DNA of 64,000 nt from Fimbriosthenelais zetlandica (taxonomy: Eukaryota): positions 36,952,001 to 37,016,000 of the forward strand of contig OZ365113.1 of the NCBI GenBank assembly GCA_977030845.1. Reading direction: 5' to 3'. The position numbers are program-made. Positions 1-3,000 of the stretch are shown here, one piece after another. Each line of letters opens with the position of its first letter. The first letter of the stretch is position 1.

Positions 1-3000
1 TGGGCTTGAGTGAAAATAATATGTACTAAGTAGAGAAAAAGCCGATTGGAGTGGATTGGCAAACTGGCTCTGTAGCACACACTCCTGTAATCGTGAGTGA
101 TTTTTAACATTGAGCCTATGGGCGGGACACTTTTGCAGAATCCAATGGATTTAGACAGGTTAGAAGCATCGAATCGGGCTGGTTTTTTGGGAGGCTATTG
201 GGGTGGGTGCCGGGGGAAGACATTGGGGTTGGGGTGGAGGTTGGGGGCCGGGGAGGGGTCCGGGGGGCTAAATAAATTTTAACATTGGAGCCTATGGCAG
301 TACGACCTAGGCGGTTGAGGCTAAATATGAAGGGGTGTAGCATAGTGAACTGTGAGCCGGGTGGTCTAGAGGTAAGACACTGGCCTGGAAAGCCAGCGAC
401 CGGGGTTCAATTCCCCGTCTAGTAACTTTTTTTCTGCTACAGTGTTCGCTACATACATGTATTTATACAGCAGTGCTGGTGCCGGGGTTGGAGATGTGGG
501 TCAACGCGGTCTCGTTAATTATTTTTCTGATCCAGAATCCGTGTTTCCGGTAGATGGCGTCAGTGTCGTTTGGTGCTGGACTCTAACACTAGATGGCCCA
601 GAGTCGCTTGTTATGATAGTGTGTTGACAAACGGGAAAAATCAAAGCCCTAGTCAACCCTGTGAAGCCGTATCCTATAAATGTGTAGCGATCAAGAAGAG
701 TGAAAAGTATATGCAAGACTGGGAATCGAACCCCGGTCTCTCACGTGCCAGGCCAGTGTCTTACCCCTAGATTACCTGTCTCACAGATATCAAACTCCCT
801 TCGAATAGTCCACTGTGTCGGTACTGCCCATAGGTTCCAATGTTAAAAATTATTTAGCCCCCCGGACCCCTTCGCGGCCCCCAATCTCCACCTCCACCCC
901 CACATCTACCCCTGACACCCACCACAACTCCCTCCCAAAAATCCAGCCCGATTCGATGCTTCTAACCTGTCTTAATCCATTGGATTCTGCAAAAGTGTCC
1001 CGCCCATAGGCGCAATGTTAAAAATCACTCACGATTACATGGATGTGTGCTACAGAGCCGGTTTCCCAGTCCACTCCAATCGGCCTTTTCCCTATCTGAT
1101 ACGTATTATTTCCACTCAAACCCACGATTATGTATAGCTTATGACCTCTACTGTTAATTCGCAAAAGAGCAGAGATGGAAAATGAGGATAACCCCGACTT
1201 CTGCGAAGTTGTCAAATCGGCCGAGCGCATACCGGCCTATAATTTGGCCTTTTAAAAACCTTAACAGCGCCCTCTCACTAAAAGTCGAAAATGTTGAATA
1301 ACTCTGTAAATAATGGGCCTAAAATTACAATCTAAACGGATTATTCTTAGTTGAGAGCATCTCCAGATATGTATGTGGTTTTTGTGCAAATAAAATAAAT
1401 TTAAAATTTCGGATTTTGAAAATTTGTCAATTTGAGGTCTTTAGCATTGGGCTCTATGGAAGAGCACAAGCCAGCGCGACAGTGGCGACCCGAGAGCGGC
1501 GAAACGGTGAACTAGCCTGCAGAGATCTAGCCAACGCTCTCTATACCTGAATTTGATTCTATGGAAGGAGCACGCCAGCGCCACCGTGATTTCTAGCGGC
1601 CAAAGGGTGAAGTAGCCTAGTGAGATCTAGCGGGACGGAGTATCTGTCCCGGTGAGGCTGCTCGCTGGGAGGGAAGGCTTGTCATACAAGCTACATACAA
1701 GCTAGCGGCGTCATACCTTCACCCACCACCTGAGGGCGCCACTGTGCCGACAATTTAGCTTTCACCATGGACTTGGCTTGGATTCGTTCTCACAGATCTG
1801 GACACCTTGAAAAATGCCTCATTTTTGAAAATCGAAATTTTTAGAAGCAGTTTCCACATGTATTACTAATACCACCCATTAGAGAATGTCCCAACTAAGA
1901 TTTTCCATTTTGAATTTCTTATAAAGACCCAGTGGTTGCCGAGATATTAAAGATTTTCGGAATCAGAGTCGTGACACGGATTGTGCAAGTCCTTGTCCGA
2001 CGAGAAATGACACCCTCCTCTATTTCATGTTTAGCTTGATTCCAGTCGTGAGAGCCGGAAGTATGCGAGCGCCAGGCTTGGGCACATGCGCAATGAAGCA
2101 CGAGACCTAGCTTCATTGTTTTTATTGAATCCCAGATTGAGAGACAGACCTGTGCACTATGTAGTCTAGAGGTAAGACACTGGCTTTGAACGCCAGAGGC
2201 CGGGGTTCGATTCCCAGTCTAATCTGACATTTTTCTGTTCCATAGGTCGCTACATAATTAGAAGGGAGAGAGTGTGGAGAAGGGACCAAATAAATAATTA
2301 TGTAGCGAACTATAGAGCCGAAAAATTGAAGTTCAGACAGGGAACCGAACCCCGGCCGCTGGCGTTGCAGGCCAGTGCCTTACCTCTAGACTACATAGTG
2401 TACAGGTCTGTACCTCAATCTGGGATTCAATAAAAACAATGAAGCTAGGTCTCGTGCTTCATTGCGCATGTGCCCAAGCCTGGCGCTCGCACACTTCCGG
2501 TTCTCACGACTGGAATCAAGCTAAACATGAAATAGAGGAGGGTGTCATTTCTCGTCGGACAAGGACTTGCACAATCCGTGTCACGACTCTGATTCCGAAA
2601 ATCTTTAATATCTCGGCAACCGCTGGGTCTTTATAAGAAATTCAAAATGGAAAATCTTAGTTAGGATAATGTCTAGCGGGTGGTATAGGAAATAAATGCT
2701 GAAATAGCTTCTAAATATTTCGATTCTCAAAATATAGCTAATTTCACAAGGTGTCCCGACTCCAGCCCCGTTTCCAATCCAAGGCTGCGATCTCAGCTGA
2801 AAACCCGGCACAGTGGCGCCCTCAGGTGGTGGGTGAACGAGGGCCTATATGACGATTGGCGCAGAGGCCTGGGGTCTTTATGCTATGCTGGCTGGCGCAT
2901 AGTATTTCACGTTTCCGCCGCTAGGATATCTATTGAACTCTATGGAAGGACCAATCCAGCGCAACTGTAGCGACCGACATATGATGTGGGAGAACGGTGA

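What the first reader, a model, noticed from the sequence alone, without database searches (positions are those of the whole stretch)
311..2400. Two unrelated foldback elements each carry a convergent pair of the same tRNA-derived module at their centre
Seen in sequence: four ~100-bp modules (355+, 781-, 2155+, 2400-) share an A-box, D-stem, T-arm/B-box, a T-run and a conserved tail TCGCTACA (446-453, 683-690, 2247-2254, 2301-2308). Each element holds two modules tail-to-tail, yet the long arms of element 1 (1-307/817-1123) and element 2 (1718-2837) are not similar to each other. A solo arm copy (3100-3478) lacks the module, so the module looks like an exchangeable cassette. Inference: this may be a family-level architecture (arm, Pol III unit forward, spacer, Pol III unit reverse, arm). 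Convergent Pol III transcription or hairpin RNA could yield dsRNA/small RNAs, or the module could drive palindrome formation. I do not recognise it as a named SINE or MITE class, but cannot exclude a catalogued family.
Basis: partly seen in the sequence, partly recalled or inferred. Interest (0 to 1): 0.65.

Follow-up and report, generated by a model that had tools for sequence, protein, structure and literature searches.

The report
Paired tRNA relics inside nested palindromes
Four decayed tRNA-like sequences sit as two face-to-face pairs at the centres of long inverted repeats in an invertebrate genome, but the two structures look like neighbouring copies of one locally duplicated repeat, not two unrelated mobile elements sharing a cassette.

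Summary
There are four ~110-bp tRNA-derived modules (347-455+, 681-789-, 2147-2256+, 2299-2408-). They form two tail-to-tail pairs, and each pair lies at the inner end of a long inverted repeat. All four keep a T-run and TCGCTACA.

A fourth, old arm copy (1256-1438) and a second tandem array show that the region is two colinear units: module pair, inverted arm U', array, arm U. So the two "foldbacks" are probably paralogous neighbours. The "solo arm" is the partner of element 2's right arm around an 86-bp array.

Identity along the arms is mosaic (98.4% next to 68.5%), which points to gene conversion. Element 1's arms (90.4%) are less diverged than the module pair they enclose.

I found no target-site duplications, no coding capacity and no further copy in the other 60.5 kb. 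A Tourist-like MITE family in the same window shows clear duplications.

Each module ends in its own T-run, so convergent Pol III transcription would not give dsRNA.

My best reading is a decaying local repeat cluster shaped by inverted and tandem duplication, arm-to-arm conversion and outward growth of the inverted repeat. No eukaryotic genome collection was available, so genome-wide copy number and Dfam/Repbase identity stay unchecked.

The parts
1..303 (+). W: left long arm of element 1. It is cut by the window start. It is G-rich and carries two copies of an ACATTG..CCTATGG motif.
   Evidence: 272 of 301 aligned bases (90.4%) match the reverse complement of 820-1124, with 6 gap columns.
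304..346 (+). Linker between arm W and module m1F.
   Evidence: Homologous to 790-819(-) but decayed: 22 of 29 bases match, with 15 gap columns.
347..455 (+). Module m1F: tRNA-like core 355-425, T7 run 427-433, tail TCGCTACATA 446-455.
   Evidence: Rfam tRNA 51.6 bits; covariance model R1 126.2 bits; ARAGORN 356-424.
456..680 (.). Spacer of element 1 (about 225 nt). It is not palindromic.
   Evidence: Half-against-half alignment does not exceed shuffles (z 0.4 and -0.8).
681..789 (-). Module m1R, the most decayed copy: its anticodon stem is broken and its T-run is only T4.
   Evidence: R1 114 bits; Rfam tRNA 22.9 bits, below gathering; alignment.
820..1124 (-). W': right long arm of element 1.
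1125..1255 (.). x: a stretch with no match anywhere in the window. I predict it is the mirror image of the sequence just left of the window.
   Evidence: No BLAST hit at E up to 1. The mirror-image reading is inference only.
1256..1438 (-). U0': an old, partial, inverted copy of arm U.
   Evidence: Local alignment score 29 against shuffle mean 11.6, sd 1.7 (z 10.3; 0 of 300 shuffles; 0 of 400 random window segments). Colinear with 2573-2752. BLAST E 1.2e-7.
1439..1640 (+). A1: tandem array of two units of about 105 bp.
   Evidence: 1446-1531 against 1551-1631 at 73.6%; 74% to array A2.
1718..2133 (+). U1: left arm of element 2.
   Evidence: Against U2': 32 of 32 at 1718-1749, 87 of 127 in the outer part, 240 of 244 in the inner part.
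2134..2146 (+). Linker between U1 and module m2F.
   Evidence: 11 of 13 bases match its mirror at 2409-2421.
2147..2256 (+). Module m2F: tRNA-like core 2155-2225, T5 run, tail at 2247-2256.
   Evidence: Rfam 44.0 bits; R1 126.6 bits.
2257..2298 (.). Loop of element 2. The perfect inverted repeat TCGCTACATAATTA extends into it, and its core is not palindromic.
2299..2408 (-). Module m2R.
   Evidence: Rfam 36.2 bits; R1 122.7 bits.
2422..2837 (-). U2': the right arm of element 2 and also the left arm of the array-centred palindrome V2. It is a mosaic copy.
   Evidence: The outer part is 118 of 128 identical to U3 but only 87 of 127 to U1. The inner part is 240 of 244 identical to U1 and 222 of 243 to U3 (Fisher tests).
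2920..3102 (+). A2: tandem array of two 86-bp units.
   Evidence: 86-87% between the two units.
3097..3479 (+). It is the right arm of V2, and no module follows it.
   Evidence: 92% complementary to 2474-2801. Its flank shows no module remnant.

Best explanation
Window 1-3479 is a non-coding, decaying cluster of nested inverted repeats in a non-human spiralian genome. It is built from one composite unit that is present twice in tandem.

The unit is P - U' - A - U:
- P is a convergent pair of tRNA-derived modules. Each looks like a Pol III unit: A-box and B-box-like sequence, a T-run, then the trailer TCGCTACA.
- U' and U are inverted copies of a ~400-bp arm.
- A is a short tandem array between them.
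- Unit 1 runs 347-2133 and unit 2 runs 2134-3479.

Because U'-A-U is itself a palindrome, putting two units in tandem automatically places U on the left and U' on the right of the second module pair. That arrangement is "element 2". Its arms have since been patched by arm-to-arm gene conversion.

"Element 1" is the first module pair. Its present arms (W) are younger than the pair. I infer they arose when the inverted repeat grew outward: during repair primed from the module inverted repeat, one flank was copied onto the other side and overwrote the inner part of U0'.

The modules are relics, not working tRNA genes. If still transcribed, each would give a short (~80-nt) Pol III RNA that stops at its own T-run. 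The module pairs (with their short linkers) can extrude as strong hairpins, which is what drives conversion and rearrangement here.

Shown: the anatomy, the colinearity, the mosaic identity, and the absence of coding capacity, target-site duplications and other copies in the window. Inferred: the order of events, outward growth of the inverted repeat, and Pol III activity.
For: (1) Colinear order P1, U0', A1, U1 | P2, U2', A2, U3. Five direct matches lie in increasing order, and 1125-1830 aligns colinearly with 2422-3175. U0' is significant: z 10.3, 0 of 300 shuffles, 0 of 400 random segments.

(2) Mosaic identity fits gene conversion, not one clean event. Inner U: 240 of 244. Outer U: 87 of 127 (p = 9e-17). 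In the outer part U2' groups with U3 (118 of 128); in the inner part it groups with U1.

(3) Element 1's arms are less diverged than what they enclose: 272 of 301 against 106 of 132 matches (p = 0.007), and 6 of 307 against 25 of 157 gap columns (p = 4e-8).

(4) In the 58-column tRNA core, within-pair identity (82.8% and 86.2%) is no higher than between-pair identity (79.3-87.9%). So the pairs are old relative to the arms.

(5) There is no sign of mobility:
- No target-site duplication at 1709/2851 or 2422/3479 or around single modules.
- A Tourist-like MITE family in the same window does show TTA and TAA duplications.
- No other module or arm copy in the remaining 60.5 kb.
- No Pfam domain in the 8 longest ORFs.

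(6) The modules are relics. Their acceptor stems do not pair (alignments), and none of the 4 folds as a cloverleaf; z ranges from -0.5 to 0.2.

(7) Hairpin potential as single-stranded DNA: 2134-2421 gives -102.5 kcal/mol, z -19.4; 304-823 gives -89.6 kcal/mol, z -5.3.
Against: Only one locus could be examined. No eukaryotic genome, Dfam or Repbase was available, so a dispersed family cannot be excluded.

Tandem duplication predicts that forward modules group with forward and reverse with reverse. Only 1 informative site does so, against 8 that group partners within an element and 3 that group the crosswise pairs (m1F with m2R, m1R with m2F). I have to invoke within-pair conversion to explain this.

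Two independent insertions of a mobile U'-A-U element next to module pairs would give the same colinear order.

The origin of arm W, and the idea that it grew out from the module pair, is inference. Its outer end lies beyond the window.

The invariant TCGCTACA and T-run sit in a trailer that is otherwise poorly conserved (55-77% pairwise). The 32-of-32 block lies at 1718-1749 inside a 68.5% region. Both look like constraint or a functional site, which a purely neutral decay model does not predict.

The two spacers (about 225 nt and about 40 nt) are unrelated.
Confidence: 0.45

Rival explanations
1. One reading: a family of mobile foldback or MITE-type DNA elements with the plan arm - Pol III module forward - spacer - module reverse - arm. 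The tRNA-derived core is shared between subfamilies whose arms differ.
For: Two palindromes share the central plan but have dissimilar arms. In both, the inner edge of the inverted repeat falls exactly at the conserved tail. The 32-of-32 identical block at the outer ends of element 2 looks like a conserved terminus. Other MITEs are active in this genome.
Against: No target-site duplication at either definable boundary. The inverted repeat of element 2 continues past the 32-nt block to CGTCATA. There are no further copies in 60.5 kb. The two cases are adjacent and colinear with shared neighbours, so they are not independent. For transposons the ends are normally the conserved part and the interior varies; here it is the reverse (recalled knowledge).
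Confidence: 0.2
2. Each palindrome arose independently from a solo module. Replication or repair turned back just 3' of the module (fold-back priming or template switching at a Pol III-bound or hairpin-prone site), copying the upstream flank plus the module in inverted orientation.
For: In both elements the inverted repeat ends right after TCGCTACA(TA), and the arms are whatever lies upstream. Within-element partners share leader and acceptor states: 8 informative sites group partners, of which 4 lie in the leader and acceptor. The hairpin potential is strong.
Against: A single event predicts uniform arm identity, which is not seen. It does not explain U0', A1, A2 and U3 or the colinearity of the two units. 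It needs two independent events that pick the same turn-round point.
Confidence: 0.1
3. The convergent module pairs are resident Pol III-type loci. Other repeats (U'-A-U and W) integrated preferentially just upstream of each module, as Ty3, TRE5 and DGLT-A do at tRNA genes. This produces mirror-image arms.
For: All 4 modules have a repeat end 22 nt (U) or about 52 nt (W) upstream of the tRNA-like 5' end. U'-A-U has two ends and only one abuts a module. Element 1's arms are younger than its modules.
Against: The four junctions are not independent, because of the palindromes and conversion tracts. No target-site duplications, no coding partner, and no other U or W copy in the window. The linkers of element 1 are homologous, which fits one duplication just as well. 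The yeast and Dictyostelium examples are recalled knowledge, not tested here.
Confidence: 0.1
4. A functional hairpin-RNA or small-RNA locus: read-through transcription of the palindromes gives long hairpins that are processed into siRNAs, with the Pol III modules as promoters or processing signals.
For: Strong fold-back potential. The bivalve SINE paper raises the idea that palindromic SINE structures could feed Dicer (PMC11481361, passages seen).
Against: The module promoters point inward and are stopped by T-runs before the spacer, so the arms lie upstream and would not be transcribed from them. There is no match to any Rfam family except tRNA. No expression data were available.
Confidence: 0.05

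Closest known systems
Tandem-like and palindromic arrangements of tRNA-derived SINEs in bivalve genomes (PMC11481361; I saw the abstract and passages)
   Same: Both are in a spiralian host and involve tRNA-derived Pol III-type repeats in inverted pairs. That paper reports 403 palindromic structures in one clam, 23% of its tandemly repeated SINEs.
   Different: Those SINEs have a head, a conserved body and a LINE-derived tail, and were counted only if at least 150 bp long. Here the head is followed at once by a T-run and a ~25-nt trailer, with no body. The long flanking arms are also inverted. Copy number is unknown. No sequence comparison with those families was possible.
Foldback or long-TIR MITE-type DNA transposons
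   Same: Long inverted arms, a short or variable centre, tandem sub-repeats (the arrays), and no coding capacity.
   Different: No target-site duplication, no dispersed copies in the window, the shared part is central and not terminal, and arm identity is mosaic. The Tourist-like MITEs of the same window do meet the criteria.
Growth and homogenisation of inverted repeats by gene conversion (plastid inverted-repeat 'ebb and flow', sex-chromosome palindromes). This is recalled knowledge, not from any call.
   Same: Sharp blocks of near-identity lie beside diverged stretches, and the inverted repeat extends into whatever flank lies next to it.
   Different: The scale here is hundreds of bp, in a nuclear intergenic repeat. 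The process itself is inferred here, not observed.
Dada DNA transposons that target small-RNA genes (PMC3706591; I read the abstract and part 1 of the Results, which broke off at the heading of the tRNA-Leu section)
   Same: An association between a repeat and small-RNA genes. The family is reported from an oyster and a polychaete.
   Different: For the U6 and U1 families the text seen reports insertion inside the gene with 6-bp (possibly 8-bp) duplications and no terminal inverted repeats; the abstract gives 6-7 bp duplications and names tRNA genes as further targets. Full Dada elements encode a DDE transposase. Here the tRNA-like cores are intact, the repeats lie upstream, the arms are long inverted repeats, and there is no ORF.
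HINE / Helentron non-autonomous elements that carry tandem repeats (PMC7492417; passages seen)
   Same: A short tandem array flanked by two non-coding modules in a spiralian genome.
   Different: HINEs have 11-12-bp subterminal inverted repeats, a microsatellite and a short 3' palindrome. They do not have ~400-bp inverted arms.

Membership tests
Functional tRNA gene | A cloverleaf with a paired 7-bp acceptor stem and a standard anticodon arm. | tested here: not met
   The Rfam alignments mark 2-3 non-pairs among the 7 acceptor pairs in the two full-length hits; the other two hits lack the acceptor. None of the 4 copies folds as a cloverleaf, and z is near 0. ARAGORN's "Ser" calls are only 69 nt long; the long variable arm expected of tRNA-Ser is recalled knowledge.
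tRNA-derived SINE | An internal Pol III promoter (A and B boxes) in a tRNA-related head. | tested here: met
   The D-arm and T-arm blocks are invariant or nearly so in all 4 copies, and 3 of 4 pass the Rfam tRNA gathering score. The box consensus sequences are recalled, not from a call.
tRNA-derived SINE | A body plus a LINE-derived, A-rich or microsatellite tail inside the transcript. | tested here: not met
   A T4-T7 run follows the head within about 10 nt. The conserved tail TCGCTACA lies beyond it.
tRNA-derived SINE | Target-site duplications flanking each copy. | tested here: not met
   The longest direct repeats are 5-6 nt and are reached by 263-472 of 500 shuffles. The age of the copies weakens this test.
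tRNA-derived SINE | Many dispersed copies. | not testable with these tools
   There are 0 further copies in the other 60.5 kb of the window. No eukaryotic genome collection was available. The scan of bacterial and archaeal genomes gave 0 hits.
Foldback / MITE DNA transposon | Terminal inverted repeats. | tested here: met
Foldback / MITE DNA transposon | A target-site duplication at both ends. | tested here: not met
   None at 1709/2851, 1718/2837 or 2422/3479. The outer ends of element 1 lie outside the window. Positive control: TTA and TAA duplications at the Tourist-like MITEs.
Foldback / MITE DNA transposon | Multiple dispersed copies with conserved termini. | not testable with these tools
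   The only arm copies are the clustered ones within 1-3479.
Dada transposon | Insertion inside a small-RNA gene with a 6-7-bp duplication, no terminal inverted repeats, and a DDE transposase or a deletion derivative of one. | tested here: not met
   The tRNA-like cores are uninterrupted, the arms are long inverted repeats, and no Pfam domain was found. Definition taken from PMC3706591.
HINE (Helentron non-autonomous element) | 11-12-bp subterminal inverted repeats, a microsatellite in the left flank, and a 3' palindrome after the right repeat. | tested here: inconclusive
   A tandem array is present, but it is flanked by ~400-bp inverted arms. I did not search for short subterminal repeats. 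Definition taken from PMC7492417.
Hairpin-RNA / endo-siRNA locus | Small RNAs that map to both arms. | not testable with these tools
   No expression data. Only fold-back potential could be shown.

The most novel reading that the evidence does not exclude
A convergent pair of Pol III-type tRNA relics acts as a palindrome nucleator. This is a small, hairpin-prone inverted-repeat core, possibly TFIIIC-bound, with a conserved site (TCGCTACA) at its inner edge. It repeatedly grows outward by copying whatever flank lies beside it, or it moves as the shared core of foldback elements. Either way, one core ends up with unrelated long arms at many places in the genome.
Probability: 0.2. Interest if true: 0.6.

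Novelty: new member of a known kind. Interest (0 to 1): 0.3.

Why it matters
If the local-duplication reading holds, this is ordinary repeat decay. It is still a compact example of how tandem duplication of a palindromic unit, arm-to-arm conversion and growth of an inverted repeat can mimic "modular" transposons, which is a caution for repeat annotation from single loci.

If a genome-wide census instead showed the same tRNA-derived pair at the centre of many palindromes with different arms, it would point to one of two things: a new kind of foldback element with a Pol III core, or a sequence-specific route to palindrome formation. Both would be of real interest for genome-instability and transposon biology.

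Tried and rejected
(a) A module remnant after the solo arm. Alignment of 3480-3600 to each module is not above shuffles or random window segments. The exception is a weak match to the m1F trailer (12 of 300 shuffles and 6 of 200 random segments reach it). Rejected.

(b) The palindromes continuing through the spacers. Not above shuffles. Rejected.

(c) Hammerhead or retrozyme (Penelope-type) repeats, or any other RNA family, in the arrays or arms. Over 1-3700 at E up to 5 only tRNA matched, plus one chance-level mascRNA hit at 18.6 bits against a gathering score of 42.5.

(d) A hidden transposase fragment. The 8 longest stop-to-stop ORFs (of 38 that are at least 45 aa) gave 0 Pfam families at E up to 0.1.

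(e) The translated arm ORF 2316-2636 as a proxy for copies in other assemblies. No relatives were found. This is uninformative, because two full-length proteins of this window, looked up exactly, are not in that collection.

(f) A module pattern scan of genome contigs. It gave 0 matches, as expected for a bacterial and archaeal collection.

(g) An "inside-out" reading, in which the tails are the outer termini (TG...CA, TA-flanked) of larger elements lying back to back. Rejected. There is no duplication beside 683 or 2254 (read). The arrays are in direct, not inverted, orientation. Nothing right of 3479 matches W or x.

(h) Dada and HINE. See the membership tests.

(i) A shared motif, CATTGRRCYCTATGG, links element 1's arms with the arrays: 7 hits against 1.1 expected, and 5 of the 7 lie within 1-3100. 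The pattern was derived from these same sequences, so it is only weak evidence that the arms are distantly related.

(j) Literature. Five searches returned no described family with this plan in the up to 20 listed papers per search.

(k) Host identity. ARL6 is 68-70% identical to gastropod and annelid proteins, and the best hit (88%) is unnamed. The galactosyltransferase-like ORF found only unnamed relatives at 51% or less. The phylum is left open. The window is not human.
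Full report
**Setting.** The window holds no N and is animal, non-human DNA. A single ORF at 19018-19587 encodes a full-length ARL6. Its best named matches are gastropods and annelids at 68-70% identity, and its best match overall (88%) is unnamed. Two galactosyltransferase-like paralogues (PF01762 in their relatives) lie at 4385-5764 and 6849-8078. 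The host is therefore a poorly sampled spiralian. I did not try to place it further.

**Checking the observation.** Rfam's tRNA model scores 51.6, 44.0 and 36.2 bits for three of them (gathering score 29) and 22.9 bits for the fourth. ARAGORN calls two. Trimmed to 347-455(+), 681-794(-), 2147-2256(+) and 2299-2408(-), they align with 82% mean column identity.

The invariant blocks cover the D arm, the anticodon stem, the T arm, a T-run (T7, T4, T5, T5) and TCGCTACA. That octamer occurs 6 times in 64 kb against 0.83 expected, and 4 of the 6 are the module tails.

The acceptor stems do not pair, and none of the four sequences folds into a cloverleaf better than shuffles. These are tRNA-derived relics that keep promoter-like boxes and a terminator-like T-run. 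The box and terminator rules are recalled knowledge.

A covariance model built from the four copies, run without filters, finds them at 114-127 bits and nothing else above 12.3 bits (E 1.4) in the window. So 4 of 4 detectable copies lie in two convergent pairs, and there is no solo copy in the other 60.5 kb.

**The palindromes.** Element 1 is 1-420 against 1124-716 (82.9%) and is cut by the window start. Element 2 is 1718-2837 with a 34-nt loop. In both, the inverted repeat stops at the tail, and the spacers (about 225 nt and about 40 nt) are not palindromic. As single-stranded DNA, the central parts fold far better than shuffles: -102.5 kcal/mol, z -19.4, and -89.6 kcal/mol, z -5.3. The arms of the two elements share no BLAST-detectable similarity. 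They share only a short motif that I derived after the fact.

Sensitive self-comparison shows a fourth U-arm copy, old and inverted, at about 1256-1438. It is well above chance: z 10.3, with 0 of 300 dinucleotide shuffles and 0 of 400 random window segments reaching its score. A two-unit tandem array (1439-1640) follows it directly, then U1. Right of element 2, the same order recurs: U2', a two-unit array (2920-3102), then U3. The two stretches align colinearly.

The region therefore reads P1, (W', x), U0', A1, U1 | P2, U2', A2, U3, where P is a module pair.

"Element 2" is the place where the right arm of one U'-A-U palindrome faces the left arm of the next, with P2 in between. This removes the independence of the two cases, and the "exchangeable cassette" idea rests on that independence.

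**Identity is mosaic.**

Element 2:

| Segment | U1 vs U2' | U2' vs U3 |
|---|---|---|
| 1718-1749 | 32 of 32 | 15 of 31 (U3 lacks this block) |
| Outer U | 87 of 127 (68.5%) | 118 of 128 (92.2%) |
| Inner U | 240 of 244 (98.4%) | 222 of 243 (91.4%) |
| tRNA core | 51 of 58 | not applicable |
| Trailer | 31 of 40 | not applicable |

The contrasts are highly significant (p = 9e-17, 1.5e-6 and 4e-4). U2' is thus a recombinant, which is the signature of gene conversion between arms.

Element 1:

| Segment | Matches | Gap columns |
|---|---|---|
| Arms W | 272 of 301 (90.4%) | 6 |
| Linker + leader + core + trailer | 106 of 132 (80.3%) | 25 |

The differences give p = 0.007 for substitutions and p = 4e-8 for gaps. 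The arms are therefore younger, or more recently homogenised, than the module pair.

In the 58-column tRNA core, partners are no closer (82.8% and 86.2%) than non-partners (79.3-87.9%). Eight informative sites group partners, 4 of them in the leader and acceptor next to the arms. One site groups forward with forward and three group the crosswise pairs.

**No sign of mobility.** I see no target-site duplication at the ends of element 2 (1709/2851 or 1718/2837), at the ends of U2'-A2-U3 (2422/3479), or around single modules. The test works in this window. A Tourist-like MITE family has full copies at 28988-29200 and 43107-43302 and a solo arm at 38645-38708. Its TIR identity is 89%, similar to the arms here, and it shows TTA and TAA duplications.

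No arm or module copy lies elsewhere in the window. The 8 longest ORFs have no Pfam match. A translated arm ORF has no relatives, but that is uninformative, because two full-length proteins of this window, looked up exactly, are not in that collection.

**Most likely history and mechanism (inference).**
1. A tRNA-derived Pol III-type unit was duplicated in inverted orientation, giving P.
2. P, together with a U'-A-U palindrome, was duplicated in tandem. Alternatively, two U'-A-U copies came to lie beside P pairs.
3. Hairpin-prone inverted repeats then exchanged sequence by conversion.
4. In unit 1, repair primed from the P inverted repeat copied the left flank (W, and I predict x as well) onto the right side, overwriting the inner part of U0'.

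The prediction is that the bases just left of the window mirror 1125-1285.

If the modules are still transcribed, each would give an RNA of about 80 nt that ends at its own T-run. Only read-through from outside could produce a hairpin RNA.

**What this does not explain.** TCGCTACA and the T-run are invariant in a trailer that is otherwise poorly conserved. The 32-nt perfect block sits inside a 68.5% region. The forward-with-forward signal is nearly absent. The origin of W is unknown. These points keep the rival readings alive: a mobile foldback family, independent fold-back events at the module, and Pol III-directed insertion.

[quoted passage not shown] Those SINEs have a body and a LINE-derived tail, which these modules lack.

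Dada transposons (PMC3706591) and HINEs (PMC7492417) fail on defining features. Foldback and MITE membership fails on target-site duplications and cannot be tested for dispersal.

Five literature searches turned up no family with this plan among the papers listed.

**Verdict.** The "two unrelated elements with an exchangeable cassette" reading is weakened by the colinear neighbours and the mosaic arms. The best reading is a locally duplicated, converting cluster of nested palindromes around tRNA relics (confidence 0.45). Interest is modest unless a genome-wide census shows the same core in many palindromes with different arms.

Noticed in passing
window 28988-29200, 43107-43302, 38645-38708: A Tourist-like MITE family of about 215 bp with ~62-bp terminal inverted repeats at 89% identity. 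There are two full copies, flanked by 3-bp duplications (TTA and TAA), plus one solo arm. The superfamily assignment from the TWA duplication is recalled knowledge.
   Followed up: partly
window 6149-6712: A compound hairpin repeat (arms 6182-6302 / 6355-6475 at 93%, and 6149-6263 / 6598-6712 at 87%) with a 21-bp tandem repeat at 6529-6585. It lies between the two galactosyltransferase-like paralogues.
   Followed up: no
window 4385-5764 and 6849-8078 (- strand): Two tandem single-ORF paralogues, 84% identical over 431 aa. Their database relatives carry PF01762, and all relatives are unnamed at 51% identity or less.
   Followed up: partly
window 14038-15185 (ORF 13990-15339, - strand): A 45-bp tandem repeat of 25.5 copies with 98% matches. 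It stays in frame and encodes about 25 copies of a 15-aa unit next to zinc-finger-like sequence. This looks like a very young coding minisatellite.
   Followed up: no
window 19018-19587 (+): A complete ARL6 protein is encoded in one uninterrupted ORF (95-100% query coverage of the query in the listed ARL6 hits). It may be an intronless gene or a retrocopy. The exact protein is absent from the protein collection.
   Followed up: partly
window 1718-1749 / 2806-2837 and the array units (e.g. 1470-1515): A 32-of-32 identical block at the outer ends of element 2's arms lies inside a 68.5% region. It resembles part of the tandem-array unit (CAGTGGCG..CC...GGTGAAC). It could be a short conversion tract or a constrained site.
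   Followed up: partly
window 181-262 / 862-945: Element 1's arms carry a G-rich (C-rich on the other arm) run of GGGG-type repeats with a 20-bp periodicity. Quadruplex-forming potential was not examined.
   Followed up: no
window 20898-21316: A 169-bp tandem repeat of 2.6 copies with 82% matches. Not examined.
   Followed up: no
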